A stretch of DNA of 64,000 nt from Squalus acanthias (Eukaryota), in NCBI GenBank assembly GCA_030390025.1, contig CM059431.1:158474001-158538000 (forward strand), read 5' to 3'. Under the pieces are notes generated by a model. The model was given only the letters and a program-made list of their open reading frames with translations. It made no database searches and had not been told where the DNA came from. This document shows, piece after piece, positions 7,930 to 52,269 of this stretch (positions are counted from its first letter, which is position 1; every line of letters starts with the position of its first letter). A program made the position numbers and the translations under genes.

Positions 7930-8110
7930 TTTGGATGCGGCTCCCTTTAACGGGCTGCGGGGCTCATTCACAATTTCGCGCATGTGCGAAAACTAGCATA
8001 GAAAAGCCGGTAATCGGCCTGCGCGGTATCTCCAGATAGCAGCGCAGACGTGAAGCTTAGCGGGAACGTTGCAGTGGAGTTTAGATAGAGGGGGAACTGG
8101 GGAAAACTCG
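7930..8110 (+). promoter_or_regulatory. Promoter-like CpG-containing segment, cassette A
   Basis: Non-TE, locally CpG-rich; NRF1-like GCGCATGTGCG at 7978-7988; paralog at ~36640-36820. Confidence 0.4.
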
Positions 8111-8604
8111 TGTAGGGTGAAGGTTTGGGGAGGTACAAATATTTCCTCTGATGATAGAAGTGAAAATGTTGATAAAATAAAGTAGGATTTGCGTCCATAG
8201 TTTGGGACACTGTAGAGAAGTATTCGGATCTGAGAAAAATAGACGAGGTGGATAAGTCATAGTGCCTGAGATAATGCACCTCAGACTCTTAATGGAAATC
8301 ATAGGGGAGATAAATGCGACTCTGACCACAATTTTGCAATCCTCATACAATATCACAAATGTACAGGTGGACTGAAAAAGCCTAAACAATGCCTCTGTTA
8401 AAATGGGGAGAGAGGTTCAGCCAGTTAACTGGAGACCTATTAGTCTGTTATTTGTGAGCAAGCTGTGCCAATTTGTAATTCCAGGTTGAATTAGTGAACA
8501 TTTACAGATAAAGGGGAGGCTGCAACAGATTAGCTGTAGACAAGTTCTATTTGACTAATTTGATGCAGCTTTTCTGAGACGTGTCTGTATGGATCTGCTG
8601 TAGA

Positions 8605-9020
8605 AAGCACCCATCACCGTGTGCTTTCTGACCTCCATTGGCTCCCGATCCGGCAACACCTCGATTTAAAATATCTCATTCAAGTTTTCAAATCCCGACA
8701 TGGCCGCGCCCCTGCCTATCTCTGTCACCTGCTCTAGCCCAAAACCCTTGGAGATCTCTGTGATCCTCCAATTCTGGCCTCTTGCGCATACCCGATTTTA
8801 ATCACTCCGCCATTGGCGGCCATGCCTTCTACTGCCCTAAATTCTGAAATTCCCTCTCTCTGCTTTAAGACGCTCCTTAAAACCTACTTCTTTGAACAAG
8901 CTTTTTGACACGTGTCCTAATATGTGGCTCGGAGTCAAATTGTGTTTGATAACGCTCCTGCGAAATGCCTTGGAAAATCATTGTACGTTTAAAAAGCTAT
9001 ATAAATGGAAGCTGTTGTTG
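8605..9020 (+). mobile_element. L2-type LINE/SINE 3' end
   Basis: cattggctcccg..aaaacctac..ctatataaatggaagctgttgttgt tail shared with the other L2 ends in the window. Confidence 0.75.
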
Positions 9021-9269
9021 TGGTCCTGTAATCTTGCCTAATCAACCCGATAATTCGGGTCTCTGTCTATGCTACCCAGCCAGGAACTTTGCTGTACATC
9101 ATCTCATTCTGAATCAGTACCTGATCCTGCAGATAGATTGCAGCACATTCAACTTGTTTGCAAACTTCTGCCAGGCGAGCTAAAGTGCCTCTTGTTGCCC
9201 TGGTTTACGCTGCCCGCCCTCTTTTGCCAGACACGGTGCACTTCAATCCTGTAGGGTGGGCTTAGTCCG

Positions 9270-11280
9270 GGGAATGTCAATGTCGGGCTGGCTGAGTGCA
9301 GTTTTGAGCAAAATGAGTGTGGTTTGGGTGTTGGGCCAGATCAGTGGAGTGTCGGTGTTGGGCTGGGTCAGTGGGGTGTCGGTGCAGGGCAGGGGCCGTG
9401 CTGTGTCGCAGTTGTGCTGGGTCAGTGGGGTGCCGGTTTGGGGCTGGGTCAATGGGGTGTCGGTGTGTGGCTCGTTCAGTGCTGTGTCGGTGTTGGGCTT
9501 GGTCAGTGGGGTGCCGGTTTGGGGCTGCGTCAGTCGGGTTTCGGTGTGAGGCTGGGTCAGTGCTGTGTCGTTGTGGGGCTGGGTCAGTGGGGTGTCGTTA
9601 TGGGGCTGGTGAGTCGGGTGTGTTTGTGTAGGGCGTGGTCCGTGGTATGTCGGTTTTGGGTTGGGTCAGTGGGCTGTCGTTGTGGGGCTGGGTCAGTTGG
9701 GTGTCGGTGTGGGGCTGTGTCAGTGGGGTGTCGGTGTGGGGTTGGTTCAGTGGTGTGTCGATGTGGGGCTGGTCAGTGGGGTGTCGGTGTGGGACTGGGG
9801 CAGTGGTGTGTCGGTGTGGGTCTGGGTCAGTGGTTTGTCGGTACGGGGCTGGGTCAGTGAGGTGTCGCTGTGGGACTGGGTCATTGGGGTGTGGGTGTGG
9901 GGCTTGGTGAGTGGGATTTCGGTGTAGGTTTGGGTCAGTGGGATATGGTGTGGGGCTGGGTCAGTGCATTTATGTGAGGGGCTGGATAAGTGGGGTATGG
10001 TGTGGGGCTGTGTCAGTGGGGTATGGTGTGGGGCTGGTTTCGTAGGGTATGGTGTGGGGTTGGGTCAGTGGGGTGTGGGTTTAGGGCTGGGTCAGTGGGG
10101 TGTCGGTGTGGGGCTGGGACTTTGGGGTATCGGTGTTGGTCTGGGTCAGTGGGGTTTCGATGTGGGGCCGTGTCAGTGGTGTGTAGGTGTAGGGCTGGGT
10201 CAGTGGGGTGTCGATATAGGGCTGGTCAGTGGGGTGTCGGTGTGGGCCTGAGTCAGTGGGGTGGCAGTGTAGTGCTGTATAAATGGGCTGTCGGTGTAGG
10301 GCTGTTGCAATGGGGTGTCGGTGTGGAGCTGGGTCAGTGGGGTGTCGAAGTGGGCCTGGGTTAGTGGCGTGTCGGAGTGGGCCTGGGTTAGTGGGGTATC
10401 TTGTGGGGCTGTGTCAATGGGGTGTCGGTGCGGGGCTGGGTCAGTGGGGTATGCTGTGGGGCTGGGTCAGTGTGTTGTGGCTGAGTTGCTGGGTCAGTGG
10501 GGTATGGTGTGGGGCTGGGTCAGTGGGGTATGGTGTGGAGCTGGGTCAGTGGGGTATGTTGTGTGTCAGGGTCAGTGGGGTATGGTGTGGGGATGCTTCC
10601 GTGGGGTATGGTGTTTGGCTGGGTCAGTGGGGTGTCGTTGTAGGGCTTGGTCAGTGGGGTTTCAATTTGGGGCTGTGTCAGTGGGATTTTGGTGTGGGCC
10701 TGGGTTAGTGGGGTATGGTGTCGGGCTGATTCCGTCGTGTGCCGGTGTAGGGCTGGTTCCGTGGTGTGTCGGTGTGGGGGTGGGTTAGCGTGGATTTGCT
10801 GTGGGCTGGGATAGTGGGGTTTGCTGTGGGGCTGTTTCAGTGGGGTATTGGTGTGGGGCTGTTTCAGTTCTGTGTCGGTGTAGAGCTGGTTCGTATGGGT
10901 ATCGAGGTTGGGCAGGCAGATTGGGGGTGTCTGTTTTGAGTCAGTGAGTGTGTCGGTTTTGGGTTTTGTCAGTGCGGTGCTGGTATAAGGGTGGGTCAGT
11001 GCGATATCTGGGATGGGTCTGTGAGGTTTTCGCTGTTCGGCAAGTTCGGTGGGGTGTCTGTGTAGGGTTGAACCAGTGGGGCTGTGTCGGTGGGGGTGCG
11101 GGGGAAGGGTTGGTGGGTGTGGGGAATGATCGGTGGAGATGGAGTTGTAGGGTCGTTGGGGGCAGGGCTGTGTCGGTGGGTGCGGGGCGGGGCTTGGTCG
11201 TTTGGGGGCGGCTTTGGGTCGCTGTGGGGCGGGTCAATGTGTGGCTAGGTCAACTGGGCGTAAGTGTTGGGCTGAACCAG
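9270..11280 (+). repeat. G/T-rich minisatellite, ~27-bp unit GGGGCTGGGTCAGTGGGGTGTCGGTGT
   Basis: Visible tandem units; 9-aa periodicity (GVSVWGWVS) in spurious ORFs. Confidence 0.95.
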
Positions 11281-11779
11281 TGGGAAGAATCAACAACAGC
11301 ACGTGAACTATCCAGGGTCGATGACAGGGCAAGCTCCGGTTTACAGAGCCTCACTGCAAAGAAAAGATGTATTTTATGGTAAGATTGATGAACAATAGGA
11401 AGAAAGGAATTGGAAGATTATGCTGATAGGGTCAGATGAAGAGGTACGTGTGGAGGTTCCTGTGAAGTATAAACACAGGCTTGGACCAGTTGAGTCGAAT
11501 GGAATGTTTCTGAGCTCTACATTCTATGTAATTCTCTGTATTAAAAAAGGGAAGCGACGGCGCTGCATTTTCTGAAGCAGTTTTTTAAAAGGAGAATATC
11601 GTAAGCTTTGCTCTAATTCTGGAAACTGCAGGAAGCAAACCCTTCCGTGGAAATGGGAGATTCTAGTCGCCCAGCCAGCAAACGTGGCATGTTTTGTTAA
11701 AGTGAAATGAGTTTAACAGTCGCTGTAACATTAAACCACAAATGAGACTTATGTATTTCAGAGGAGACAGTTTGTTCAA

Positions 11780-13574: not shown

Positions 13575-13617
13575 AATATTCCCTTCCTCAGGAATAATGT
13601 TGGTTTTGAAGTGCAAT
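13575..13617 (+). other. Putative 43-nt micro-exon (probably 5' UTR), copy 1
   Basis: atatttccccgcAG|...|GTGAGT; both splice sites conserved in the paralog at 30614-30658. Confidence 0.55.
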
Positions 13618-26275: not shown

Positions 26276-26371
26276 AGCATCGGAATCTGGGAATCCCTGC
26301 CCCCACCATGGCTGCAATTCCAAACAGGGAAGATGAGCCAACATCTTCAAAAGGAATGGGAAAGGTCACAG
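26276..26371 (+). CDS. Putative start-codon exon copy 1 (ATG 26308; MAAIPNREDEPTSSKGMGKVT, phase-1 donor); possibly the first coding exon of a shark NLR-like gene
   Basis: ttacAG acceptor, CCCACCATGG Kozak context, CAG|GTAGGT donor; three paralogs. The family guess is from recollection of shark NACHT-LRR N-termini and is unverified. Confidence 0.55.
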
Positions 26372-30613: not shown

Positions 30614-30658
30614 ATTAACCTCTACCTCAGAAATAAGGCTTCTTTTGCCCTGCACTGT
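30614..30658 (+). other. Putative 45-nt micro-exon, copy 2
   Basis: ttccctgcAG|...|GTGAGT; paralog of 13575-13617. Confidence 0.55.
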
Positions 30659-30739
30659 GTGAGTAAAACTTACCAAAGGGCGCAACCAGTGCGGAGTCTC
30701 GGCCGACAGTCGCCCATCTGGAACTCGGTTGTGGAGATC

Positions 30740-33430: not shown

Positions 33431-33683
33431 GGCTTGGGTCCGGAGCGGCATACAAAATGCACACTCAAGATCAGCGGGACACATTGGATTTCACTGGGCA
33501 GCTGTTTGTGTCGCACCTGACCTGGAGTTGTGATCGTAACACTCGGGAAATATTGGTACCCAGAGCTAACAGTATGCTGTACTGATGGGGGATGAGGGCC
33601 TTGATATCATCTTTAATAAGACAACGTTCGGTTTCTCATCTTAATATTGCCTCCTAAACCTCATGTTAATATATTTATTGAAG

Positions 33684-33779
33684 AGCATCAGAACCTGGGA
33701 ACGCCTGTCACCGCCATGGCTGAATGTCCAATCGGGGGAAAAGATCCAATATATATGGGAATAAATGAAAAAGCCAAAG
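33684..33779 (+). CDS. Putative start-codon exon copy 2 (ATG 33716; MAECPIGGKDPIYMGINEKAK, phase-1 donor)
   Basis: CACCGCCATGG Kozak context, AAG|GTAGGT donor, same 96-nt length as copy 1; acceptor weaker (ttgaAG). Confidence 0.55.
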
Positions 33780-35189: not shown

Positions 35190-35545
35190 TATGCTAAGAT
35201 AGAATCCACGCATTTTAAATGAAAATTGGGAAGGGGCAATATTACACGTATTGAATAATTCGTTGGAAATGGTGTCATGCCAGTGGACTATCGGATGTCG
35301 AACGTTCCAACTATATTTAAGAAGGGGGATCGAACATATCTAGGAAACTATAAACCAGTCAGCTTAACATCAGTAGAGGGTAAATAATGGAATCTGTAGT
35401 AAAAGAGAAAATAGAAAAACATCTAGAAAACAGAAATATAATAATGAACCGTCAACACGGATTCCAAACGGGAAATTCTTGCTTGAAAGGTTCATTGAAT
35501 TATTTGAAGAGGGAACAGAGCGAGTTCATAGGGCTAATGTAGAAG
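35190..35545 (+). mobile_element. CR1 fragment (paralog ~53440-53785); same lineage as 6666-7860
   Basis: ggaaactataaaccagtcagcttaacatc (GNYKPVSLTS). Confidence 0.75.
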
Positions 35546-36475
35546 ATCACCTTCCATTCAACACGTGGTCAGAAATGGGGATGTTCGCTGATGGCTGCAC
35601 AGTGTTCAGTGCCATTCACAAATCTTCAGATAATGAAGCAGGCCATGCCCGCATGCAACAAGATCTGGACGACTTTCAGGTTTGGGCTGATAAGTGTCAG
35701 GTAACATTCGCGCCACAATAGTGCCAGGCAGTGAGTATCCCCTACAGGGGACAGTCTAAAAACCGCCCCTTGACATTCAACGGCATTACCATCGCCGAAT
35801 CCCCCACCATCAGCATCCTGGTGTCACCATTGACCAGAAACATAACTGGACAAACCACATAAATAGTGTGGCAACAAGAGCAGGTCAGAGGCTGGGTATT
35901 CTGCGGCGTGTGTCTCACCTCCTGACTCCCCAAAGCCTTTCCACCATCTTTAAAACAGAAGTCAGGAGTGTGATGGAATACTCTACACTTGCCTGGATGA
36001 GTGCAGCTCCAAAAACACTCAAGATGCTCGACACCATCGAGCACAAAGTAGCCCGCTTGATTGGCAGCTAAACCACCTCTTTAAACGTTCACTAGCTCCG
36101 CCTCCGGCGTACCGTGGCAACAGTGTGTACCTGTACAAGATGCACTGCAGCAACTCGCCAAGGCTTCTTCGGTAGCACCTCCCAAACCCCCGAGCTCTTC
36201 CAACCAGAAGGACAAGGGCAGCAGGCGCATGGGAACACCACCATCTCCACGTTCCCCCTCAAGTCACACACCATCCTAACTTGGAAGTATATAGCCGATC
36301 CTTCAAGATCGCTGGGTCAATTCATGCAACTCCCTCCCTAACAGCACTGTGGGATCACGCTCAGCACACTGACTGTAGCGGTTCAAGAGGGTGGCTCACC
36401 AACACCTTCTCAAGGTCTATTAGGGATCGGCAATTAATGCTGGCCTCGCCAGCGACGCCCACATTCCATAAATTA
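35546..36475 (+). mobile_element. CR1-group Zenon-like LINE 3' part
   Basis: MFADGCTVF; LLTPQSLSTIFKTEVRSVMEYSTLAWMSAA; 3' end gccagcgacgcccacatt. Confidence 0.75.
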
Positions 36476-36639
36476 ATACAAAAATAGGAACGGTGGGAGG
36501 AGGCTCGAGTGGAACGTAAATGGACTGGTTGGGCCAAAAGGCCTGTTACAGTGCAGTATATTTGTAATTTTATGTAATTCCTATGTACATCGTTAAGCAA
36601 TAACAGGGAAAATAGCAATGATCCCCCTAATTTTTTTTT

Positions 36640-36820
36640 GTGTGTGCGGTCTCTTTAACGAGCTGCGGTTCCCATTCACAATAGGCGCATGTGCTAAATC
36701 TATAATAGAAAAGCCGGAAAGCGGCCTGTGTGGGATCTCCAGACAGCTGTGCGGTGGATCAGCTTAGTGGAAACGTTGCAGTGAAGGTTAGATAGAGGGG
36801 GAGCTGGGTGAAACTCGTGG
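36640..36820 (+). promoter_or_regulatory. Promoter-like segment and possible first exon, cassette B
   Basis: GCGCATGTGC at 36685-36694 (NRF1-like), CCGGAA at ~36714 (ETS core), AAG|GTTAGA at 36787 just before the satellite. Confidence 0.4.
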
Positions 36821-36829
36821 GTCTATGTG

Positions 36830-39800
36830 TGGCTTGGTCAGTGGGGTATATGTGTGGGGCTGGGTCAGTGGGGTGTCGGTGTGAGGCTCTGTCAGTGGGG
36901 TGCAGTTATTGAGTTGGAGCAGTGCGATTTCGGTGTGGGGCTGGGTCAGTGGGGTGTGGGGCTGGTTCAGTGGGCTGTCGGGTTTGGGCTGGGTCAGTGA
37001 CGTTTCGGTGCGGGGCTGGGTCTGTGGGGTGTCAGTGTGGGGCTGACTCAGCGGGTTTTCGGTGTGATGCTTGTTCAGTGGGGTTTCGGTGTGCCGCCAG
37101 GTCAGTGGGGTGACGGTGTGGTCTGTGTTAATGGCCTGTCGCTGTAGGGCTGGTTCAGCGGGGTTTCGCTGTGGGGCTTTGTCAGGGAATTTCGGTGTGG
37201 GGCTGATTCAGTGGGGTGTCGCTGTGAGGCTTGGTCAGTGGGGTGTCCGTGTAGAGCTAGGTCAATGAGGTGTCGGTGTGGAGCTGGCTCGGTGGGGTTT
37301 CGGTATGGGGCTGGGACAGTAGGGTGTCGGTGTGGGGCTGTGTCAATGGGGTGTCGGTGTGGGTCCGTGTCAATGGGGTGCGTTGTGGGGCTGCCTCAGT
37401 GGTGTGTCGATGTGGGGCTGGGTCATTGGGGTGTGTGGCCGGGTCAATGGGGTGCGGTGTGGGGCTGGGTCAGTGGTGTTTCGATGTGGGGCTGGGTCAG
37501 TGGAGTGTCGGTGTTAGGCTGGGTGAGTGGGGTGTCGGTGTGGGGCTCGGTCATTGGTGTGTCCGTGTGGGGCTGGGTCAGCGGGGTTTTGGTGTGGGGC
37601 TGTGTCAGTGGGATGTCGATGTTTGGCTGTTCAGTGGGGTGTCGGTGTGGGGCTCTGACAGTGGGTTGTAGGTGTTGGTCCGTGTCAATGAGGTTTCAAA
37701 AGAACATAATAACATAAGAAATAGGAGCAGGAGTCGGCCAATCGGCACCTGGAGCCTGCTCCGCCATTCAATAAGATCATGGCTGATCTGACCCTAACCT
37801 CAAATCTAAAGAACACAAGAAGTAGGAGCAGGACCCGGCCACTCAGCCCCTGGGCCCGCTCCGCCACCAACAGGGCCTTGACAGATCCCAACTCAGCTTC
37901 ATGTCCAATTTCCTGCCCGTTCCTCATAACCCCTAATACCCTTTACTTCTCGGAAACTGTCTATTTATTTTTTTAATTTATTTAATGATGTAGCTTCCAC
38001 AGCTTCCTGGGGCAGCAAATTCCACAAACCTACTACCCTCCGAGTCAAGAAGTTTCTACTCATCTCAGTTTTGAAAGAGCAGCCCCTTATTCTAAGATTT
38101 TGCCCCCTAGTTCTAGTTTCACCCATCCTTGGGAACATACTTACCGCATCCACCCGATCAAGCCACTTCACAATCTTATATGTTTCAATAAGATCGCCTC
38201 TCATTCTTCTGAACTCCAATGAGTAGAGTCCCAAGCTACTCAACCTCTCCTCATATGTCCACCTCCTCACAACCGGGATTAACCGAGTGAACCTTCTTTG
38301 TACTGCCTCGAGAGCAAGTATGTCTTTTCTTAAGTATGGACACCAAAACTGTATGCAGTATTCCAGGTGCGGTCTCACCAATACCTTATATATCTGCAGC
38401 AATACCTCCCTCTTTTTATAATCTATATCCCTATCAATAAAAGCCAACATTCCGTTGGCCTTCTTGATCACCTGCTGCACCTGCATACTATCTTTTTGAT
38501 TTTCTTGCACTGGGACCCCCAGATCCCTTTGTACTGCAGTACTTTCCAGTTTCTCGCCATTAAGATAATAACTTGCTCTCTGATTTTTCCTGCCAAAGTG
38601 CATAACCTCACATTTTCCAATATTGTATTGCATCTGCCAAATCTCCGCCCACTCACCCAGCCTGTCTATATCCCCTTGTAGGTGTTTTATGTCCTCCTCA
38701 CTTTATACGTTCCCTCCCATCTTTGTATCATCTGCAAACTTTGATAAGTTACACTCGGGCCCCTCCTACAAATCGTTAATATGGATTGTAAAGATTTGGG
38801 GACCCAGCAGCGACCCCTGCGGAACACCACTGGCTACTGTTTGCCAGTCCGACAATGAACAATTTATCCCGATTCTCTGCTTCCTGTTAGATAACCAATC
38901 CTCCACCCATGCCAGAATATTACCCACAATCCAGTGAATTTTTACCTTTAGCAATAATATTTTATGTGGCAACTTGTCGAATGCGTTCTGGAAGTCTAAA
39001 TACACTACGTCCACTGGTTCCCCTTTATCCACCCTGTACGTTATGTCCTCAAAGAACTCAAGCAAATTTCTCAGACATGACCGCCCTTTCATAAAGCCAT
39101 GCTTTATTTGTCCTATTAAATTATGTTTATCTAAATGTTCCGTTACTGTCTCCTTTATAATAGACTCCAAAATTTTACTCACCGCATATGTTAGGCTAAC
39201 TGGTCTATAATTTCCAGCCTTCTCCCTACTACCCTTTTTAAATAAGGGTGTTACATTAGCTGTGGGGCTGGGTCAGTAGGGTGCCGGTGTGGGGCTGTGT
39301 CAGTTGGGTGTCGATGTGGGGCTTGATCTGTCGGGATTCGGTGTGATGCTGGGTCTTTGGGGGGTTGGTGTGGCGCTGGTTCAGTGGGGTTTGGTGTGGG
39401 GCGGGGTCAGTAGCGTATCGGTGTCGGGCTTGGCCAATGGGGTGCGGTGTGGGCTGGGTCAGTGAGGTTTCGGTGTGGGGCTGGGTCTGTGGGGTGTCGG
39501 TGTGGGGCTGGATCACTGGGCTGTCGGTGCGGGGCTGTCAGTGGTTTGTGAGTGCTGGTTCAGTGGGTGTCGTTCTGCTTCATTTTGGTGTGGGTCTGGT
39601 TCAAGGGGTGCTGGAAACTGTCAGTGGGGTCCGGGTCTGGGTCACTGCGGTGTGGGTCAGAGGGCTGGGGGTCGGGGATGGAGCGGTGGGCGGCGGGGCT
39701 GTATAGGTGAGTGCGTGGCTGTGTCGGCGCGGCGCGGTGCTGGGTCAGTGGCGGGTTGGGATGGATTGCTGACGGGTCGGTGGGTAGACAGTGATGGGGA

Positions 39801-42460
39801 GGTGGCGATTGGAGAGGAATTACTGAAGGGGCGGGCCTGGGCAGGTGGGGGGGCAGGGCTGAGTCGTTTGTGGTTTTGGAGGGATTGCTGAGGGGGCGGG
39901 GCGAGGTCGGTGCGCGGGGAGCGTGGAAGGATTGCTGAGGCGGCGAGCTGGGGCGCTGGGGGTGGGGCTTGTTCGGTGGGGGGCGCGGATGGTTTGCTGA
40001 TGGGGTGGGTCTGGGCCGGTAAGGGTAAGGATGGATTGCGGAGAGGGCGGTGCTGGTTCCGTGTGTAGACAGGGCTGGGTCTGGGGGGGGGTGGTGAAGT
40101 TTCAATGGAGTGCCAGTGTGAGGCTGGTTCAGTTGACTGTGGTGTCTTGTTCAGTGGCGTTTGGTGCCGGGTCAATGTGGTGTGGGTCAGTGTCAGTGGG
40201 GTGTGGGTCTGGGTCAGTGCCGTGTGTAGCTGGTTCAGTGGTTTGTGGGGTTTTCTTCTTTGGGATGCGGGGCTGTGTCAGTGGGGTGCGGGGCTGGGTC
40301 AGTGGGGGGCGTCGCTAGGTCAGAGGGGTGCTGGGCTGGTTCACTGGGTTTTGGGTTCTTGTTCAGTGGCGTGTGGGGCTGGGTCAGTAGGGTGTGTGGC
40401 TGGGTCATTGTGGTGTGGGTCCGGGTTCAGTGGGGTTTGGGGCTGGGTCAGTAGGTATGTGGCTGTGTCAGTGTGGTGCGGGTCAGTGTCAGTGGTGTGT
40501 GGGCTGAGTTAGTGTGGTGTTGTAGCTTGTTCAGTGGGTTGTGTGGGCTTCTTCCATTGGATGCTGGGCTTGGTCAGTTGGGTGCGAGGCTGGGTCAGTT
40601 GTGTGCGGTGCTGGGTCAGTGGGCTGCGGGGATCGTTCAGTGGGTTGTGGGGTCTTGTTCATTGCCGTGTGGGGCTGGGTCAGTGGGGTGTGTGGCTAGG
40701 TCAGTGTGGTGTGGGTCAGGCTCAGTGGGGTATGGGGCTGGGTCAGTGTGGTGTTGGTCAGTCTCAGTGCGGTGTGGGGCTGGGTCAGTGGGGTGTGGTG
40801 CTGGGTCAGTGGGGTGTGTATCTGCTTCAGTGGGTTGTGGGGTCTTCTTCAGTGGGATGCGGGGCTGGGTCAGTGGGGTGTGTATCTGCTTCAGTGGGTT
40901 GTGGGGTCTTCTTTAGTGGGATGCGGTGCTGGGTCAGTGGGGTGCGGTGCTGTATCAGTGATGTGTGGGGATGTGTCAGTGGGGTGCGGGGCTGGTTCAG
41001 TGGGGTGTGGGGCTTGGTAAGTGGGATGCGGCACTGTCTCAGTGGGGTGCGGGGCTGTGTCAGTGGTTGTGGGGCTGTGTCAGTGGGGTGCTTGGCTGGG
41101 TCAGTTGGGTGCGGGTCTGGACAGTGCGGTGCGGGGCTGGGTTAGGAGGTTGTGTGGCTAGTTCAGTGGGGTGTGGGGTCTTGTTCAGTGTCATGTGGGG
41201 GGTGTCAGTGGGTTGCGGGTCCGGGACAGCGGGGTGCGGGTTTGATTCAGTGTAGTTCACTGCTGGGTCAGTGGGGTGTGGGGCTTGGTAAGTGGGATGC
41301 GGCACTGTCTCAGTGGGGTGCGGAGCTGGATCAGTGGTGTGTGTTTCTGGGACAGTGGGGTGCGGTGCTGGGTCAGTAGGGTGCGGGTCATGTTCAGTGG
41401 CATGTGAGATGGGTCAGTGGGCTGCGGTGCTGGGTCAGTGGGTTGCGGAGCTGGGTCAGTAGGGTGCGGGCCGGTGTCAGTGGGGAGCGGAGCTGGGTAA
41501 GTGGGGTGCGGGTTTGGGTCAGTGGGGTGCGAGGCTATGTCAGTGGGGTACGGGGCTGGTTCAGTGGGGTGCGAGGCTATGTCAGTGGGGTACGTGGCTT
41601 GTTCAGTGGGGTGCGGGGCTTTGTCAGTGGGGTGCGGTTCTGTATCAGTTGGGTGCGAGGCTATATCAGTGGGGTGCGGGGCTGGTTCAGTGGGGTGCGG
41701 GGCTGTGTCAGTGGGGTTCGGGCCTGTGTCAGTGGCGCATGGGGCTGTGTCAGTGGGGTGCGGGCCTGTGTCAGTGGGGTGCGGGGCTGTGTCAGTGGGT
41801 TGCGGGCCTGTGTCAGTGGGGTGCGAGGCTATGTCAGTGGGGTGTGAGCCTGTGTCAGTGGTATGCGAGGCTATGTCAGTGGGGTGCGGGGCTGGTTCAG
41901 TGGGGTGCAGTGCTGGGTCTGTGGGGTGCGGGCCTGTGTCAGTGGGGTGCGGGGCTTTGTCAATTGGGGTGCGTGGCTGGTAAAGTGGGTTGTGGGATCT
42001 TGTTCAGAGTCTTGTGGGCGGGGCAGTGGGGTGCGGGTCTTGTTCAGTGGCAATTGGGATGAGTCAATGGGTTGCGGGCCTGTGCCAGTGGGGTGCGGGC
42101 TGTGTCAGTAGGGTGCGTGGCTGGTTCAGTGGGGTGTGGGATCGTATTCAGTGTCTTGTGGGGGGTTCAGTGGGGTGCGGGTCTTGTTCAGTGGCAATTG
42201 GGGTGGGTCAGTGGGTTGTGGGGCTGGGTCAGTGCGGTGCGGGGCTGGCTAAATGGAGTGCAGGGTGTTTGGCTCAGTGGAGGGGCGAAACTGTGTCGTT
42301 CAGCGGGCGGGTCTGGGTCGGTCGGGGGTCTGGGGGCTGAGTCGGGGGTCGGGGGTCTCTGACGGTGTGGGTTGCGGGCTGCGTTGCTAGATTGGGCTTG
42401 TGCTGGTTCAGTGTGGCGTGGTGTTGATTCAGTGGGGTTTCGCTGTTTGGCTGTGTCAGT
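36830..42460 (+). repeat. G/T-rich minisatellite (27-bp units grading into 21-bp GGGGCTGTGTCAGTGGGGTGC), split by a CR1
   Basis: Tandem units visible; 7-aa periodic ORFs (SGVRGCV) at ~41500-41960. Confidence 0.95.
37700..39258 (-). mobile_element. 5'-truncated CR1 inserted in the minisatellite; same family as 15068-24127
   Basis: ORFs 37965-38633 and 38766-39182; aacataagaaataggagcagg tail. Confidence 0.92.
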
Positions 42461-43249
42461 GGGACGGATGAACAACAGCACTTGAACTACACAGGGTCAG
42501 TGAGAGGTCAAGCTCCGGATTACAGAGCCTCACTGCAAAGAAAAGATGTATTTCAGGGTAAGCTCGATAAACAAGTGGAAGAAATACATTGGAAGATTCT
42601 GCTGATAGGGTTAGATAAAGAGGGACGGTAGGAGGGCGATGTGAAGTATAAACACAGCATGGACCATTTGAGACGAATGGGCTGTTTCTAAGCTGTTCAT
42701 TCTGTGTAATTCTCTGTGTTAAAAACGGGAAGTGACGGCGCTGCATTTTCTGAAGCAGTTTTGTAAAAGGAGAATTTCGGAAGCTTTGCTCTAATTCTGT
42801 AACCTGTACCACGGAAACACCTCCGCTGTAAGTGAGAAATTCCAGTTGCCCAGCCAGGGCACGTGGAATGTTTTGTAAAAGTAATATGAGTTTAACAATG
42901 CCTGTACCATTAAACGCCAAATGAGACATGTGTATTTCAGAGGAGAGTGTTTGATCTAAGGGTTGCACCCAATTTGCCCGTGGTTGAAGAGTTAGACATG
43001 TGTAACTCCAGCCTCACTTTCCCCTCAATATTTTGTCGCCTCACGAAACTCTGCCCATCTTTCTCACAACTCCATGTTTGAATCTCTCCAATCGGGTTTG
43101 CGCTCCTGACACAGCAGTGAAATGACAATAATCAAAGTCAAAATGAAACGCTCTATGTCTGCTTAAGTGGTAAATTAACCGCCCCCCTCATTTTTCTTGA
43201 CCTCTGCTGCCTTTACACGGACGCATTTATCTCGGGGGTGGGGGAGGGC

Positions 43250-46200
43250 GCATTTTTTATTTGTTACTGGGATGTAGGCGTCGCTGACAATGCCAGGATT
43301 TATTGGCCATCCCTAATTGGCATTGTGAAGGTGGTGGTGAGCTGCTTCCTTGAACTGCTGCAGTCCGTGTAGTGAAGGTACTCCCACAGTGCTGTATGGT
43401 AAGGAGTTGCCGGATTTTGACCTAGCGACGATGAAGGATCGAAGTTAGGACGGTGTGTGACTTGGAGGGGAAACTTGGAGATGGTGGTGTTCCCAGCCGC
43501 CTGCTGCCCTTGTCCTTCTAGGTGGAAGAGTTCGCGGGTTTGGGAGGTGCTGCCGATGAATTATTGGCGAGTTCCTGCAGTGCATCTTGTAGATGGCACA
43601 GACTGCAGCCACGGTACGCCGGTGGCGATGGGAGTGAATGTTTAAGTTGGTTGATGGGGTGCCAATCAAGCGGGCTTCTTTGTCCTGGAATGTGTCGAGC
43701 TTCTTGAGCGTAGTTGGAGCTGCACTCATCCAGGCAAGTGGAAAATATTCCATCACACTCCTTACTTGTGCCTTGTAGATGGTGGAAAGGATTCGGGCTG
43801 TCAGGAGGCGAGACACTCGCCTCAGAATACCCAGCCTCTAACCTGCTATTGTTGCCACAATATTTATTTGGCTGGTCCACTTAAGTTTATGGTCAACGGT
43901 GACCCCCGGAATGTTGATGGTGGGGGATTCAGCGATGGTAATGTCGTTGAATTTCAAGAGTAAGTGGATCGACTCGCGCTTGTTGGAGATAGTCATTTCC
44001 TGGCAAATCTGTGGCGTGAATGTTACCTGCCACTTATCACCCTTGGCCAGAGCGCCGTCCAGGTCTTTTTGCATGTCCGCCTGGACTGCTTCATTATCTG
44101 AGGAGTTGTGAATGGCGCTGAACACTGAGCATTCTTCAGCGAATATAACTATTGCAGACCTTATGTTGGAGGGAAGTTCATTGATGAAGCAGCTGAGAAT
44201 GATTGGGTCTAGGACACTTCGCTGAGGAACTCCTGCAGCGATGTCCTGGGGTTGTGATGATTGACCTTCATCCACCACAACCATCTTCCTTTGTGCTAGG
44301 TATGTCTCCAGTAGGTACAGAGTTTTCCACCCGATTCCCATTGACTTCAGTTTGATTAAGTCTCCTTGATTCCACACTCAGTCAAATGCTGCCTTGATGT
44401 CAAGTGCAGTGATTCTCACATCACCTCTGGAATTCAGCTCCTTTGTCCATGTTTGCATCAAGGCTATAATGAGTTTGGGAGGCGAGTGGTCTTGGCGGAA
44501 CCAAACTGGATATCAGTGAGCAGGTTATTGGCGATTAAGTTCCGCTTGATACCACTGTCGATGACGACTTCCAGATTGCTGTTGAGTGACAGTAAACTGA
44601 TGGGGCACTAATTGGCCAGGTTGGATTTGTCCTGATTTTTGTAGACAGAACACACCTGTGCAGTGTTCCAGTCAGATATACATAGATACATAGATACATA
44701 GAAGATAGGAGCAGGAGAAGGCCATCCGGCCCTTCGAGCCTGCTCCGCCATTTAATGAGATCATGGCTGATCCTCCAATTCAGTATCCCGTCCCCGCCTT
44801 CTCTCCGTAACCCTTAACCCCTTTTGCCTGTAGAAATATATCTAATTCCCTCTTAAATATATTTAATGAGCTGGCGTACACTGCCCTCTGTGGCAATGAG
44901 TTCCACAGGTTCACCACCCTCTGAGTGAAGAAATTCCCCCTCATTTGTGTCCTAAATGGTTTAGCCCTTATCCTTAAATTATGTCCTCTAGTTCTGTTCT
45001 CACCCGCCAAGGGAAACATTCCTTCTGCATCTAGTCTGTCTAGACCTGTCAGAATTTTATACACTTCTATGAGGTCCCCTCTCAATCTTCTAAACTCCAG
45101 TGTGTACATCCCTAAACTACATAGTCTCTCCTCATAGGTCAATCCCGCCATTCCTGGTATCAGCCTGGTGAATCGCCGCTGCACCCCCTCCATGGCAAGA
45201 ACATCTTTCCTCAGATGAGGCGCCCAAAACTGTACACAGTACTCAAGGTGTGGTCTCACCAGTGCCCTGTACAGCTGCAGCAAGGTATCCCTGTTCCTGT
45301 ATTCCAAACCTTTTGCTATGAAGGCCAGCATACCGTTTGCCTTCTTGACCGCCTGTTGCACCTGCATGCTCGCCTTCAGTGACTGGTGTACAAGAACACC
45401 CAGGTCTCTCTGTACTTCCCCCTCTCCCAATTTATTGCCATTTAAATAATAATTTGCCCTCCCGTTCCTGCACCCAAGGTGGATAACTTCGCACTTGTCC
45501 ACATTATAGTGCATCTGCCATTTATCCGCCCAATCACCCAGTCTGTCCAAATCGCTCTGGAGCTTCCTGGTCTCCTCCTCTGAGCCCACCCCCCCTCCTA
45601 GTTTAGTGTCGTCTGCAAATTTGGAAATGCTGCATTCGACTCCCTGATCCAGGTCATTAATATAAATTGTGAACAGCTGGGGACCCAGGACAGATCCCTG
45701 TGGTACCCCACTTGTTACTGCCTGCCATTCAGAAAATGAGCCGTTTATTCCAACTCTCTGTTTTCTATCTGACAGCCAGTTCTCTATCCACGTCAATATT
45801 TACCCCTTTATCCCATGAGCTTCAATTTTCCATGCTAATCTTTTATGTGGGACCTTGTCGAAGGCCTTTTGGAAGTCCAGGTACACCACATCTACTGGCT
45901 CTCCCCCATCTATTTTACCAGTTACTCCCTCAAAAAATTCCAATACATTAGTCAAGCACGATTTACCCTTTGTAAATCCATGTTGACTCTGTCCTATCCT
46001 GTCCCCAATTGCTAAGTGCTCCGCTATTTCATCCTTAATGATGGACTCCAGCATTTTGCCCACAACTGATGTAAGGCTTACAGGTCTGTAATTACCTGCT
46101 TTTTCCCTACCCCCCTTTTTGAATAGTGGGGTAACGTTAGCTACCCTCCAATCCATGGGCACTGTTCCCGAGTCTAATGAATTCTGAAAAATCATACTTA

Positions 46201-47503
46201 GTGCATCCGCTATCTCTAGGGCCACCTCCTTCAGTACCCTAGGATGCATGTTATCAGGCCCTGGTAATTTGTCCGCCTTCAATCCCTTTAGCTTCCTTAA
46301 CACCATATCCTTAGAGATATTGATTTGCGTCAGTTCCTCCTTTGCCCATGTCCCTATTTTTCCCGATATCCCAGGGAGGTTTTTTGTGTCTTCCTTCGTA
46401 AAGACTGACCCAAAGTATGCATTTAGTTGGTCTGCCATTTCCTCATTTCCCGTTATATATTCCCCCGTATCTGACTGCAATGGACCAACTTTGGTTTTCA
46501 CCAGTCTTTTCCTCTTGATATACTTATAAAAGCTTTTGGAGTTAGTTTTTATATTTTCCGCCAGCTTGCTTTCGTAAGCTATTTTGCCCCTCTTGATTAA
46601 GCCCTTTGTCCTCCTTTGCTCTATCTTAAACCGTTCCCAATCTTCCACTCTGGCGCTTTTTTTGGCTATTTTATACGCCCTATCTTTGGATTTTATGCTG
46701 TCTCTAATTTCCCCTGTTATCCACGGTTGAGTCACCTTTTTAGATTTCCTTTTATGCCAGATTGGTATAAACAATTTTTGCAATTTTGTCATTCTATCTT
46801 TAAATGCTTGCCATTGTTTATCTACCTCCAGTCCTCCCAGGAACGTTGTCCAATCAGACCTACTCAGTTCCCGTCTAATGGCATCATAATTCCCCTTGTT
46901 TAAATTCAGGACCTTAGTCTCTGAGTCAATTTCTTCGCTGTCCATTTCAAGTGAGAAATCGATCATGTTATGATCGCTCTGACCCAAGGGTCCCCGTACA
47001 ACAAGATTACTAATTAGTCCCTTCTCATTGCACAGTACCCAGTCCAATATAGCCTGTTCCCGAGTTGGTTCCTCGACATATTGGTCCAGATAACCATCCC
47101 TTAAACACTCAAGGAATTTCTCCTCCTCATTATTTTTACTGATTAGGCTAGTCCAATCTATATGTAAGTTAAAGTCACCTATGATGACAGCTGTGCTCTT
47201 ATTGCACGCTTCTCTAATTTCCCTCGTGATGCCCTCCCCAACCTCTATTTTACTATTTGGAGGCCTATATACCACTCCTATTAATGTTTTTCGCCCCTCG
47301 CTATTTCTTAGCTCCACCCATGTAGATTCTGTATTAACTGAGTTAATATCCTTCCTTTCAATTGCATTTATCCCCTCTTTTACCAGCAATGCTACCAGAG
47401 TTGTAGCTGTACTGGAACAGCTTACAGAGAGGCACGGCTGGTTATGGAGCACAAGTCCTCAGCACGATATCCGGGATGTTGTCGGGGCCCATTGCCTTTG
47501 TGG
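43250..47503 (-). mobile_element. Zenon-like CR1-group LINE nested in L2 and split by a CR1 (pieces ~43250-44670 and ~47396-47503)
   Basis: IYKAQVRSVMEYFPLAWMSAAPTTLKKLD; AGVPQRSVL. Confidence 0.78.
44673..47395 (-). mobile_element. Young 5'-truncated CR1; ORF2 open except for one in-frame TAA at 45800
   Basis: ORFs 45800-47452 and 44780-45796 are in the same frame (HGIKG*ILTWIEN); (ATAGATAC)n tail. Confidence 0.93.
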
Positions 47504-50145
47504 AAAGATATTAGAAATAGGGAGGGGAAAAGCTATCTTGGAAATTTCAAACAATGTTGAGAATTATGAAATCGAGGCGTTGCTTTAGCGGGAGTCAGTT
47601 TAGGTCAGCGAGCACAGGAGTGATGAGTGAACAGGACTTGGTGCCACTTTGGACACGGGCACCCGAGATTTGGATGATGTCAAGTTTACGTAGGGAAGAA
47701 CGAGAGAAGCCTGCCAGGACTGCGTGAGAATAGTCAAGTCTCGAGGCACCTGGGTATGGATGAAGGTTTCAGCAGCAGATGAGCTGAGGGTGTTTTGGAG
47801 ACTGGCGATGTTACAGAGATAGAAATAGGCGATCTTTGTTATGCCACGGATATGTGGTCGCAAGCTCATTTCAGAGGCAAATATGACACCAAGTTATTGA
47901 ACAGTGTGGTTTGGCCTCACAGCTGTTAGGTAGAGGGATGCATTCGGGAGGGAACTAAAACAATGTCTTTCAAATATTTAACTGGAGAACATTTCTGCTC
48001 ACCCAGAACTGATTTCGGGCAAGCAGTCTGACAATTTACAGATCGTGGAGGGGTCGAGAGAATAGGTGGTGAGGTAGAGCTGGGTGTCGTCAGCGTACAT
48101 GTGGAAACTGACGTTGTGTTTTCCGATGATATCGTCAAGGGGCAGCATTTAGATGAGAAATATTATGGAGCCAGGTATTGATTATTGTGGGACACCAGAG
48201 ATAAGGATGCCGGAGCGGGAAGAGAAGCCATTGCAGGTGATTCTCTGCCTACGATAGATAAGAGTGGAAACAGGCGAGTGCAGTCCCACCCAGCTGGACG
48301 GCGTTGGAAAGGCGTTTGGAGGAGTTTGGAGTGGTCAACCGTGTCAAAGGCTGCTGAGAATTCCAGCTGGACGAGAAGGGATAGTTTTTCTTTGTCGCAG
48401 TCACAAAGGAGGAAATTGGTGACCTTTATGACAGCCGTTTCTGTACTTTGGCAGGGGCAGATACCTGATTGGAGGGATTCTGAAATGGAGTTCCCAGAAA
48501 GATGGGAATGGATTTGGGAGGTGATAACATGTTCAATTACTTTGAATCGGGAAGGGAGGTTGGAGTTGGGGCAGTAGTTAGTAAGGACGGGCGAGTCAAG
48601 TGTTGTTGTTTTTGAGGAGAGTGGTGATGAAGGCAGATTTGAAGGAGAGAGGGACAGTACCTGATGAGAGAGAACCTTTATCAATGTCAGCTTACAAAGG
48701 AGCCAGAAGAGGAAGTTCGGCGTTCAGCAGTTTGGTGGGAATAGGTTCGAGGGAGCAGGAAGTGGATCTCATGGACAAGATGATCTCGGAGAGGAGAGGT
48801 AGAGGAGATCGGAGAGAAGCTGGAGAAAATTGCTAGTTCAGGGCTATGGCTGGGGGAGCCTGAGTGGATGCTTGGCCTGGTGGGCTAGGGGAAGGAAGAG
48901 AAGTTGCAGAGGCCGCTGGTCGTATGCTCTCAATCGTAGAGATAAAGGAATTGCTGAGCTCCTCGGACTTTTTGTTGGAGGTGAGGGTGGAGTAGACGAG
49001 GAAAGGGACTTAAGAAGATGGTTAGCTGTGGAGAATAGAAGCCAGCGTTTAGCTTTGCATTCCAGAATGAATCTGGAATAGTGAGCAATGTTGGCAGATG
49101 AGAGGAGAACTCGATAATGCTTTATGTGGTCAATCCAGATCTGGCAGCAAGAGACTTAACAAGTAGTATGACATATGCGTTCAAGTCTGCATCTCTTGGA
49201 ATTAAGGGAGTGAAGATGAGTGCCAGACCAGTTGAAATAGCCAGTGTGAGACAGTGTAATTGTTTTAATAGGGACTACTGCATCGACGGTGGTGGTGAGG
49301 GTATGGTAGAGCAGTTCGGTAGGTGCGGAAATGTTGTGGTCAATGGAGTGCCAAAGGCTGGTGGTTGGGATTTCGTAAGTGCAGTTGTAAGAGAGTTGTG
49401 AGAGAGTTTTTTTTCCTTTTGCAGGTACAGAATTAAGTATTGCTGGGGGTGAAGGGGGATGCGGGTGTAGAGCAATGGAAGGAAATGGTCAGAGATGGCT
49501 TTTTCAGCGATTGACACGATGGGAGTAGCGAGGCCACGAGAGATGGCAAGGTCGAGGCTGTGTCCATGATGATGGGTTGGGGAGTTTACTTCTCTTAAGG
49601 GTAAGGCTTCACCATCCCTCATGCAAGTTTCCGTCAGGGCCATGATGTCGATGAACTCAATCACGATATGCTCATGGATGGAAAGGACCTAGGTCGCAAG
49701 AGGATGGCCATTCTGGAGGGAAATGGGGAGATGTTCGGTGATGTCTAATCCCCTGCCAGGTTCCACAGGGTCAGCGCTGGAAAGCGTAAATTGGACGGGA
49801 AGGGGATTGAGAAGATTAGCCCCCAGCGGGCGGGCTTGGCGGGAAGGTCGGCAAAAGAGTAGGATAATACAGTTGGCGTTGCTGCTCGTGAGGAGGCAGC
49901 AACGAATGCCACGTTGGGCATTTCGGAGAATACAAAGAGAGGCACTGAGGGAAGCTATAGAATTACCTGAGATAAACAGCAGCAGGAGAGTAGGAAGGTC
50001 GAAGAGCAATGAAGGGTTGGTGCAGGAATTTGGGAGGGCAGTGTATCCGAGACAGGAGAGATGAAAGGAGGCATAATGACAGGAAAGCGCGATCACAGAG
50101 GGTAGAGAGAAAAGGAAAAGTGGAGAAAAAAGTGGAACTAGAAGT
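47504..50145 (-). mobile_element. L2 LINE, paralog of 14070-15067 plus 24128-26050 without the CR1/Gypsy insertion
   Basis: ESLQSGICPCQSTETAVIKVTN..EFSAAFDTVDH; IDIMALTET. Confidence 0.85.
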
Positions 50146-50146
50146 G

Positions 50147-51930
50147 AAACATAGAAACATAGAAACATAGAAGTTAGGAGCAGGAGTAGGCCATTCGGCA
50201 CCTCGAGCCTGCTCCGCCATTCGATGAGATCATGGCTGATGATCTAAACTCAGTACCCTGTACCTGCCTTCTCCCCATATCCCTTGATAACTTTAGCTTT
50301 AAGAAATATATCTAACTCATCCTTGAATATATTTAATTACTTCGCCTCAACTACCTTCTGTGGTAGAGAATTCCACAGGTTCACCACTCTCTGGGTGAAG
50401 AAATTCTTCCTCATTTCTGTCCTAAATGGTTTACCCGTTATCCTTAGATTATGACCCCTGGTTCTGGACTCTCCGACCAACAGGAACATTCTTCCTGCAT
50501 CTAGTTTGTCCAGACCTGTCAGAATTTTATATGTTTCGATGAGATCCCCTCTCATTCTTCTATACTCCAGTGAGTATAAGCCCAATCGACCCAATCTCTC
50601 CTCATATGTCATTCCTGCCATCCCAAGTATCAACCTTGTGAATCTTCGCTGTGCTCCTTCCATGGCAAACACATCCTTCCTCAGATAAGGCGACCAAAAC
50701 TGCACACAGTACTCAAGGTGTGGTCTCACCAAGGCCCTGTACAACTGCAGCAGGACATCCCTGTTCCTATACTCAAAACCTATTGCTATGAAGGCCAAGA
50801 TACCATTTGCCTTCTTCACCGCCTGCTGCACCTGCATGCTTACTTTCAGCGACTGGTGCACAAGGACACCCAGGTCTCGTTGCACTTCCCCTTCTCCCAA
50901 TCCAGTGCCATTCAGCTAATAGTCTGCCTTTCTGTTTTTGACACCAAAGTGGATAACCTCGCACTTATCCACGTTATATTGCATCTGCTACGTTTCTGCC
51001 CACTCACCCAACCTGTCCAGATTATCCTGGAGTTTCTCGCTATCCTCCTCGCTGCACACACCCCCACCCAGCTTTGTGTCATCTGCAAACTTGGAGATAT
51101 TACATTTAATTCCCTTATCTAGATCATTAATGTAAATTGTGAATAGCTGGGGTCCAAGGACCGATCCCTGCGGTACCCCACTAGTCACTGCTTGCCACTC
51201 GGAAAAAGACCCATTAATTCCTACTCACTGCTTTCTGTCCGCCAACCAGTTCTCTATCCTTGTCAATAACTTGCCCCCAATCCCATGTGCCTTAACTTTA
51301 CCCGCTAATCTCTTATGCGGGACATTATCGAAAGCCTTTTGAAAGTCCAAATACACCACATCTACTGGTTCTCCCTTATCTATTTTACCAGTTACATCCT
51401 CAAAAAATTCCACTAGATTAGTCAAGCACGATTTACCTTTTGTAAATCCATGTTGACTTTGTCCGATCCTGTCACTGTTTTTCAAATGCTCAGCTATTAC
51501 ATCCTTTATAATGGACTCTAGCATTTCCCCCACTGCCGATGTCAGGCTTACCGGTCTGTAATTCCCCGCTTTCTCTCTACCACCCTTTTTGAATAGTGGG
51601 GTAACATTAGCTACCCTCCAATCCATGGGTACAAATCCAGATTCCATCGAATGTTGGAAGATGATCAGCAATGCATCTACTATTTCTAGGGCCACTTCCT
51701 TAAGTACCCTAGGATGTAGATTATCAGGCCCTGGGGATTTATCGGCCTTCAATACCGTCAATTTCCCTAACACCATTTCCCTGCAAATACTGATTTCTTT
51801 CAGTTCCTCCCTTTCATCAGACCGTATGTTCTCCAACAGCTCTGGGAGGTTATTTCTGTCCTCCTTTGTGAAGACAGAACCAAAATATGCATTTAATTGG
51901 GCTGCCATTTCTTTGTTCCGCATTATAACT
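50147..51930 (-). mobile_element. 5'-truncated CR1
   Basis: ORFs 50337-50900, 50988-51188, 51225-51923; (GAAACATA)n tail. Confidence 0.92.
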
Positions 51931-52176
51931 TCCCAGCGCCAGCCAAAATGAACACGCAGGTTCAGCGGGACTCACTGGTATTCACTGGGCAGCTGTCTGT
52001 GTCACACCTGCTGTGGAGTTTACATCGTAAGACTCGGGAAATGCTCGATCACGGAGATAACAGCTGTTGTATTGATGGGGGAGGAGGGACTTGATATCAT
52101 GTTTAAGAAGGCAACGTTCTCCTTCTCATTATAATATTTACATCTAACCCTCCAATTACTATTATATCTAATACAG

Positions 52177-52269
52177 AGCGTCAGAATCGGCGAAATGTTC
52201 AACTCGGCATCGTAACAGATATTATATTGGAAAAAGAATCGTTGAACAAATGCAAGGGCGAGGCCACAG
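52177..52269 (+). other. Exon copy 3, ATG replaced by ATC; frame still open (RQNRRNVQLGIVTDIILEKESLNKCKGEAT)
   Basis: atacAG acceptor, CAG|GTAGGT donor, 93 nt (3 nt shorter than copies 1 and 2). Confidence 0.5.

What the first reader, a model, noticed from the sequence alone, without database searches (positions are those of the whole stretch)
7930..52269. Tandem array of promoter/5'-exon cassettes with no gene body between them (possible variable-first-exon system)
Seen: almost all the non-TE DNA is repeated cassette parts on the + strand. These are promoter-like blocks (7930, 36640), micro-exons (13575, 30614) and three paralogous exons (26276, 33684, 52177) that all end in G|GTAGGTTCAGAAA, enter and leave in phase 1, and are open end to end. 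No large coding exon lies between them, and the arrangement is itself tandemly repeated at ~57 kb. Established: clustered protocadherins and UGT1A splice alternative promoter/first-exon cassettes onto shared constant exons. Inference: these cassettes could supply alternative N-termini to a body outside the window, or they could be headless leftovers of a birth-and-death gene family. From memory the peptides resemble N-termini of expanded shark NACHT-LRR (NLR) proteins; this is unverified.
Basis: partly seen in the sequence, partly recalled or inferred. Interest (0 to 1): 0.75.

Follow-up and report, generated by a model that had tools for sequence, protein, structure and literature searches.

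The report
Fast-evolving repeat exons, shark immune sensor
The repeated blocks are tandem copies of one short, fast-evolving coding exon inside a large shark innate-immune sensor (NLR) gene, lying between a predicted membrane-anchor exon and a sensor body that is broken in this copy; they are likely spliced in as internal repeats rather than chosen as alternative first exons, and the supposed promoters are transposon insertions.

Summary
The three exons are real (96, 96, 93 nt; phase 1-1; open). They are copies of the exon that starts, or lies inside, shark NLR models. They are not headless. Eight copies (-70 to +52 kb) lie between an open transmembrane-type exon 78 kb upstream and five CARD-like exon pairs, NACHT and LRR exons at 92-141 kb. 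That body is broken. Paralogous arrays of 7-9 copies on the same chromosome lead to open NACHT exons.

Across 43 copies, 42 are open, every length is a multiple of 3, 8 lack the ATG, and omega is about 1.5. This fits internal cassettes under diversifying selection.

The 'promoters' are a 163-bp inverted-repeat transposon, usually 1-5 kb downstream of the exon. The family's candidate first-exon block is absent from 954 kb, so a protocadherin-type promoter choice is not supported. No RNA run was listed, so splicing is untested.

Closest precedent: the ~30-aa N-terminal repeats of zebrafish NLR-C. This scan already noted the membrane exon and poly-CARD arrays on other DNA of this genome. What this report adds is the selection signal on the repeat exons.

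The parts
26276..26371 (+). Repeat exon copy A, 96 nt, phase 1-1, internal in-frame ATG at 26308; sixth of eight copies (five more lie 4-70 kb upstream of the window, behind a transmembrane-type exon at G000:C7:158396009-158396137)
33684..33779 (+). Repeat exon copy B, 96 nt, phase 1-1, internal in-frame ATG
52177..52269 (+). Repeat exon copy C, 93 nt, phase 1-1, no in-frame ATG; 45-49% diverged from A and B while its flanks differ by 19-23%; last copy before the CARD-like, NACHT and LRR exons, which lie outside the window (G000:C7:158.566-158.615 Mb)
7909..8071 (.).
36616..36778 (.).
9316..10889 (+). 27-bp satellite that follows the MITE in the duplicated unit (related arrays at 36826-37675 and 39261-42248)
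11281..11378 (+). 98-nt AG/GT-bounded block 'e2'; not frame-conserved, exon status untested
42460..42557 (+). Second 98-nt 'e2' block; exon status untested
13575..13617 (+). Micro block A, 43 nt; stop in phase-1 frame; non-coding or stop-bearing exon, or intron
30614..30658 (+). Micro block B, 45 nt; stop in phase-1 frame; homologues lie a few hundred bp upstream of the repeat exon in other genes of the family
29194..62636 (+). In-window part of the second copy of the 54-57-kb tandem duplication (matches -24.5..+5 kb at 89-95%)

Best explanation
The window is the middle of one ~220-kb shark NLR gene whose short N-terminal coding exon has been tandemly multiplied to eight copies, likely spliced in series or in subsets as internal in-frame repeats between a predicted membrane-anchor exon and CARD-like, NACHT and LRR exons; this copy's body is broken. 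Shown: the order transmembrane exon, 8 repeat exons, 5 death-fold pairs, NACHT, LRR on one strand, with compatible phases; open frames and frame-preserving indels in the repeats; faster change in the exon than in its flanks; sister arrays with open NACHT exons. Inferred: that the exons are joined in RNA, and that the product is a membrane-tethered NLR with a variable-length, hydrophilic linker. Most likely role (inferred, by analogy with NLRP1 and CARD8): the linker is a pathogen-facing, fast-evolving segment, such as protease bait whose cleavage would release the signalling part from the membrane. In this copy the array likely no longer yields a full receptor.
For: Map over 954 kb. The transmembrane exon is open with AG/GTAAG ends in 7 of 7 copies held, each at the head of an array or gene front; 12 close copies exist, all on C7 154-159.3 Mb. 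42 of 43 full-length repeat copies are open, with lengths of 84-108 nt, all multiples of 3; 5 of 5 gap patterns in the exon are in frame against 2 of 19 in the flanks (Fisher p=0.0005). Neutral simulation gives at most 1 stop-bearing copy in 0.2% (exon rate) or 2.6% (flank rate) of 2000 runs. Tree length is 3.95 in the exon against 2.2 in the flanks; omega 1.52, 2dlnL 6.6 against omega=1. 8 of 43 copies lack the ATG and all 8 are open; type C has only one close copy among the 40 candidates scored, in this same array. RefSeq models: 8 Heptranchias perlo models use the whole exon internally and 16 models start at its ATG; Mobula hypostoma XP_062895838/9 carry three serial copies, two of them full 31-aa units that beat 300 of 300 shuffles. 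Homologues of this NACHT subfamily carry an N-terminal hydrophobic segment (31 of 175 proteins examined, including isoforms), and Scyliorhinus torazame P0221 has the order 4 death-folds, TM, death-fold, NACHT. A paralogue at C7:155.30-155.52 Mb has a TM exon, 9 repeat copies, death-fold pairs, a stop-free NACHT and an open second LRR exon.
Against: No transcript evidence for this genome. RefSeq XP models are automated and I could not see their junction support. The stretch upstream of the ATG alone is not significantly protected from stops (P=0.098). Copies are related by segmental duplication, so counts are not independent, and gene conversion can inflate omega on a short codon alignment. Only one ray gene showed serial copies of this exon; among 26 long homologues there were no serial copies and only one weak single match. 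Micro blocks between the repeats would stop translation if spliced in. This copy's body has at least 4 lesions, and 2 of its 8 repeats have lost a splice site. The protease-bait role has no direct test.
Confidence: 0.58

Rival explanations
1. Birth-and-death debris: repeated tandem and segmental duplication piled up gene fronts that are not spliced to the body, and the open frames and high omega were inherited from earlier separate genes.
For: The body behind this array is broken. Of the other NACHT regions held, several are also broken. The region is a patchwork of 89-98% segmental copies and inversions. Death-fold pairs, satellites and transposons are amplified alike. Some repeats have lost splice sites.
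Against: ATG-less types such as C could not have started separate genes, yet they are open and highly diverged. Indels are frame-preserving, including one upstream of the ATG. The older array at C7:155.3 Mb keeps 9 of 9 copies open in front of an open NACHT.
Confidence: 0.2
2. Variable first or start exons: each ATG-bearing copy is used from its own promoter and spliced to the shared CARD-NACHT-LRR body, giving alternative N-termini.
For: 35 of 43 copies keep the ATG. In related species most matching models start at this ATG (16 against 8). Many copies share one body. The micro block sits just upstream of the exon in other family genes and could be a 5'-UTR exon. A transposon can supply a promoter (general knowledge).
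Against: The promoter blocks are a MITE located downstream of the exon. The family's candidate first-exon block is found once in each of the three canonical genes held and 0 times in 954 kb around the window. Nearly all copies have acceptors and an upstream coding TM exon exists. Each copy would add only about 21 residues, not a domain.
Confidence: 0.13
3. Two separate units: the TM exon ends a CARD-TM (or TM-stub) protein by splicing to the micro block, which carries a stop, and the repeat exons belong to a separate, non-anchored NLR.
For: The micro block follows the TM exon by about 1.8 kb and has a stop in the phase-1 frame in 12 of 12 copies. In four arrays the TM exon directly follows a death-fold array.
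Against: Database models place a TM segment N-terminal to NACHT in one chain, including after death-fold repeats (P0221). Most micro blocks keep a donor, so they are not terminal exons. No other promoter was found for the repeats.
Confidence: 0.09

Closest known systems
Zebrafish NLR-C (NLR-B30.2) N-terminal peptide repeats (PMC4852459, Howe et al. 2016, passages read; PMC11192531, passages read)
   Same: Expanded fish NLR family whose N-termini hold several repeats of an approximately 30-amino-acid motif, in variable number and sometimes with a death-fold domain; the figure legends treat them as exons and the first paper reports exon shuffling.
   Different: Shark family with no B30.2 seen. 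Repeats lie behind a predicted TM exon and before several CARD-like modules. Here the repeat exon itself shows omega above 1, whereas Howe et al. place positive selection in B30.2. Sequence homology to the zebrafish motif was not tested.
Elasmobranch RefSeq 'NACHT, LRR and PYD domains-containing protein 3/12-like' models (Heptranchias XP_067835544, Mobula XP_062895838, Heterodontus XP_067916153, Scyliorhinus torazame XP_072354258)
   Same: Same exon peptide (76% identity over 21 aa between P0045 and a nearby copy), same exon order, NACHT 59-60% identical to the Heterodontus proteins, TM-bearing and repeat-bearing N-termini in the same NACHT subfamily.
   Different: Models that carry the exon have 1-3 copies; here 7-9 divergent copies precede each body. 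These are automated annotations. The whale-shark paper (PMC8455134; passages and section 40 read) reports an NLRP-related expansion and, in what I read, not this exon architecture.
Clustered protocadherin / UGT1 / GCNT2 variable-first-exon clusters (PMC1885805, passages read)
   Same: Tandem paralogous 5' exons ahead of one shared set of downstream exons; birth-and-death turnover and positive selection of the variable exons.
   Different: There each variable exon is a first exon with its own promoter, spliced separately, and encodes a whole domain. Here the copies are 96-nt acceptor-bearing exons with no promoter found, downstream of another coding exon.
NLRP1 / CARD8 protease 'tripwire' regions (PMC7857732, PMC10249858; search listing and start of abstract only)
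   Same: A rapidly evolving region in the N-terminal part of an innate sensor.
   Different: The region here is built from exon repeats behind a predicted membrane anchor, and cleavage is entirely untested; this is a functional analogy only.

Membership tests
NLR (NACHT-LRR) gene | NACHT domain | tested here: met
   Pfam NACHT E=4e-33, with NOD2_WH and NLRC4_HD2, in the downstream exon; the exon carries a stop near its 5' end
NLR (NACHT-LRR) gene | C-terminal LRR exons | tested here: met
   tblastn hits at 140.8 and 141.2 kb, damaged
NLR (NACHT-LRR) gene | N-terminal death-fold effector | tested here: inconclusive
   Five exon pairs about 43-52% identical to P0012; Pfam CARD hit on P0012 is below cut-off (E=0.0075); precomputed PF00619 on P0221; no structure predicted
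NLR (NACHT-LRR) gene | Intact coding sequence in this copy | tested here: not met
   Stop in NACHT exon, lost LRR acceptor, stop plus frameshift in LRR2, stop in one death-fold exon
Variable-first-exon cluster (Pcdh/UGT1) | Tandem paralogous exons upstream of one constant region | tested here: met
   8 copies per body here; 7-9 in three sister arrays
Variable-first-exon cluster (Pcdh/UGT1) | Each variable exon preceded by its own promoter | tested here: not met
   Candidate blocks are a MITE downstream of the exon; family first-exon block absent. Sequence evidence only; cryptic promoters are not excluded
Variable-first-exon cluster (Pcdh/UGT1) | Variable exons are first exons, each able to start the protein | tested here: not met
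   Acceptors present, coding TM exon upstream, 8 of 43 copies without ATG
Variable-first-exon cluster (Pcdh/UGT1) | Each exon spliced separately to the constant exons | not testable with these tools
   No RNA run listed
Fish NLR-C N-terminal repeat arrays | About 30-aa exon-encoded repeats in variable number N-terminal to NACHT | tested here: met
   28-36-codon symmetric exons, 1 to 9 per body
Fish NLR-C N-terminal repeat arrays | FISNA domain and C-terminal B30.2 | tested here: inconclusive
   Neither family appeared in Pfam scans of two NACHT exons and four homologues; DNA downstream of the LRRs was not searched for B30.2
Fish NLR-C N-terminal repeat arrays | Homology to the zebrafish repeat motif | not tested
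   No zebrafish sequence was fetched
MITE (non-autonomous DNA transposon), for the 'promoter' block | Short, terminal inverted repeats, dispersed, target-site duplications | tested here: met
   160-165 bp (142 in two copies), 15-bp inverted ends, 1133 first-look candidates; 8-bp flanks match 8/8, 8/8, 6/8, 6/8, 4/8, 4/8 at six unrelated sites, but only 2-3/8 at the NLR sites

The most novel reading that the evidence does not exclude
Sharks have membrane-anchored NLRs whose juxtamembrane linker is a cassette library of 7-9 positively selected 32-residue exons, combined by alternative splicing into many sensor isoforms that act as variable bait for pathogen proteases: splice-based diversification of an innate receptor in a vertebrate.
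Probability: 0.2. Interest if true: 0.8.

Novelty: new variant of a known kind. Interest (0 to 1): 0.45.

Why it matters
It replaces a protocadherin-like reading with a testable one and points to selection acting, in a large and poorly described shark NLR expansion, on tiny repeat exons that annotation pipelines can miss. If the cassettes are alternatively spliced in the intact paralogues, one gene could yield many sensor variants, and a membrane-tethered NLR with a fast-evolving linker would be an unusual design for vertebrates. The window's own copy is a decaying pseudogene, so the intact paralogues are the ones to study.

Tried and rejected
Sequencing runs: none was listed for window:26050-27050; this is no evidence either way, and no reads were laid. 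Promoter reading of 7930/36640: rejected. Micro blocks and the 98-nt 'e2' blocks as coding exons: rejected (lengths 43/45 and 98/99, stops); as UTR exons, untested. My first reading that the ATG makes these pure start exons was dropped. Test of stop avoidance upstream of the ATG alone: not significant. Regional protein search with the exon peptide found only one cluster. Search of long homologues found no serial copies of this exon in 26 proteins. The CpG-rich spot at -85 kb looks like a LINE end, not a gene promoter. No signal-peptide exon was found upstream of the TM exon. Hits from P0108, P0022 and P0040 that came from a single query were treated as transposon contamination and dropped from the map. 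Three partial exon hits under 250 bp (two pieces at C7:154.022 Mb, one at 159.139 Mb) and the later-found C1065 copy (108 nt, open) are not in the 43-copy counts. Literature: eight full-text searches listed no paper on repeat-exon arrays or TM anchors in shark NLRs; the library lacks most subscription journals, and no supplements were read. No structure prediction was run.
Full report
Coordinates. The window is G000:C7:158474001-158538000 of a 3.7-Gb genome. Positions outside it are given as extended window coordinates (C7 position minus 158474000).

1. Observation. The three exons are at the stated places: 96, 96 and 93 nt, AG acceptor, donor G|GTAGGTTCAGAAA, open in the phase-1 frame. Copies A and B carry an in-frame ATG 32 nt into the exon; C does not. 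The rest of the window is mostly LINE and LTR-element frames and a 27-bp satellite. The tandem duplication is real: about -24.5..+5 kb matches 29.2..62.6 kb at 89-95%.

2. What the exon is. A genome search gave 393 first-look candidates, 40 scored. Several lie 8-33 kb upstream of a NACHT exon on the same strand. The peptide is the N-terminus of shark 'NLRP3-like' RefSeq models. A profile of the genomic copies hit 29 of 216 proteins held: 16 start at the exon's ATG, 8 Heptranchias models use the whole exon internally, and 5 were weak. A Mobula model has three serial copies, joined through the Glu codon that a phase-1 junction of this exon would create; its two full repeats score above 300 of 300 shuffles against a quarter of the genomic peptides. 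These are automated models whose read support I could not see.

3. The gene around the window. Mapping 954 kb shows eight copies on the + strand from -70 to +52 kb; all eight are open, one has lost its acceptor and one its donor. Five two-exon death-fold modules follow at 91.8-131.6 kb, then a NACHT exon at 137.6-139.35 kb and LRR exons at 140.8-141.4 kb. The phases are compatible. A weak hit led to a 129-nt, phase 1-1, open exon at -77,991..-77,863 that encodes a hydrophobic helix followed by Cys-Cys and basic residues (hydropathy 2.8 against at most 0.54 for the repeats). All 7 copies held are open with canonical splice sites, and each heads an array or gene front. Among database homologues, 31 of 175 have such a segment ahead of NACHT (isoforms included), and one has the order 4 death-folds, TM, death-fold, NACHT, as in four arrays here.

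4. This body is broken. It has a stop about 40 codons into the NACHT exon (137735-137737), a lost LRR acceptor, a stop and frameshift in the next LRR exon, a stop in one death-fold exon and a LINE end in place of another's donor. Sister genes fare better. Two minus-strand arrays nearby (7 copies each before the body) and a segmental copy at 159.1 Mb lead to stop-free NACHT exons. An older array at C7:155.30-155.52 Mb has a TM exon, 9 copies, many death-fold pairs, a stop-free NACHT of the same subfamily and an open LRR exon. Canonical genes have 1 or 2 copies.

5. Selection on the repeats. Of 43 full-length copies, 42 are open and all lengths are multiples of three. Five of 5 gap patterns in the exon keep the frame, against 2 of 19 in the flanks (p=0.0005); these are patterns, not independent events. 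Neutral simulation on the tree gives at most one stop-bearing copy in 0.2% or 2.6% of runs, depending on the rate used. The exon tree is 1.8 times the flank tree. Omega is 1.52, and fixing it at 1 costs 6.6 in 2dlnL, about p=0.01. Eight copies lack the ATG and all are open. Against this: the part upstream of the ATG alone is not significant (P=0.098), the copies are related by segmental duplication, and conversion may inflate omega.

6. The 'promoters' and micro-exons. The block at 7930/36640 has a 163-bp core with 15-bp terminal inverted repeats. It occurs on C2, C4, C5, C10, C11, C17 and others, with 8-bp target duplications at several of those sites. The homologous intron position in two other genes lacks it. 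Of 30 block hits, 27 lie 0.75-4.7 kb downstream of a repeat exon. A different block, whose translation matches the upstream part of a ray model and which has a GC box and a donor-like end, lies 4-20 kb upstream of the exon in canonical genes. I take it as the family's candidate first exon; it has no hit in the 954 kb. The micro blocks are gene-family sequence but are not frame-conserved and stop translation in 12 of 12 copies.

7. Mechanism. The best model (0.58) is one transcript from upstream of the TM exon, with the repeats spliced in series or in subsets to form a hydrophilic, variable linker between a membrane anchor and CARD-like/NACHT/LRR domains. Order, phases, open frames and selection are shown; splicing, membrane anchoring and function are inferred. 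A fast-evolving linker in an innate sensor suggests pathogen contact, for example protease bait as described for NLRP1 and CARD8 (PMC7857732, PMC10249858; listing and abstract start only); this is untested. Rivals: debris (0.20), alternative start exons (0.13), and a separate TM-ending unit (0.09).

8. Comparison and novelty. It works like the ~30-aa N-terminal repeats of zebrafish NLR-C (PMC4852459, PMC11192531; passages read). It is not a member of the Pcdh/UGT1 class as described in PMC1885805 (passages read), because the own-promoter and first-exon tests were not met. Eight literature searches listed nothing on this architecture in sharks. Earlier notes of this scan had already seen the TM exon and poly-CARD arrays elsewhere in this genome; they are unchecked and not independent support. 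I had seen one such note on a membrane-anchored shark NLR before following up my own TM hit. Verdict: a new variant of a known kind; interest 0.45, held down because this copy is a pseudogene and no RNA could be examined.

Noticed in passing
extended window 137735-137737 and G000:C7 near 155682300: The same Tyr-to-stop change occurs at the same NACHT codon in two paralogues that are only 86% identical, while a third (C1065) keeps Tyr; no local rise in identity. Homoplasy, short gene conversion or an old tolerated stop.
   Followed up: partly
extended window -153000..-103000 and 361000..428500 (minus strand); G000:C7:159.18-159.24 Mb: Arrays of about 7-10 two-exon CARD-like modules in a ~7-kb repeat, mostly open, lying upstream of a TM exon.
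   Followed up: partly
window 17850-22370 (minus strand), second copy from 62635 to beyond the window end: LTR retrotransposon with gag-protease, reverse transcriptase and integrase frames in separate pieces; the two copies are 96-98% identical.
   Followed up: no
extended window -102500..-89800 (plus strand): LTR element with 99% identical 1.6-kb ends and four long frames, the last envelope-like by appearance; related, diverged copies near 506-514 kb and 543-552 kb. Observed only.
   Followed up: no
extended window -81700..-81481 (plus strand): Low-copy block with a splice donor and CACCC-like boxes, shared only by the heads of three arrays among the DNA held; candidate first exon for the TM-bearing genes.
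   Followed up: partly
extended window about -85500: Head-to-head junction: the plus-strand array begins where the minus-strand gene's 5' end stops, and its first 12.5 kb are 98.5% identical to an inverted copy at 468-480 kb.
   Followed up: no
extended window 179295-181322 (plus strand): Second, internally deleted and frameshifted NACHT-LRR fragment behind the first body.
   Followed up: no
P0205, P0235, P0237 (ray RefSeq models): Long N-terminal runs of other short repeats, suggesting repeat growth is common in this family.
   Followed up: no
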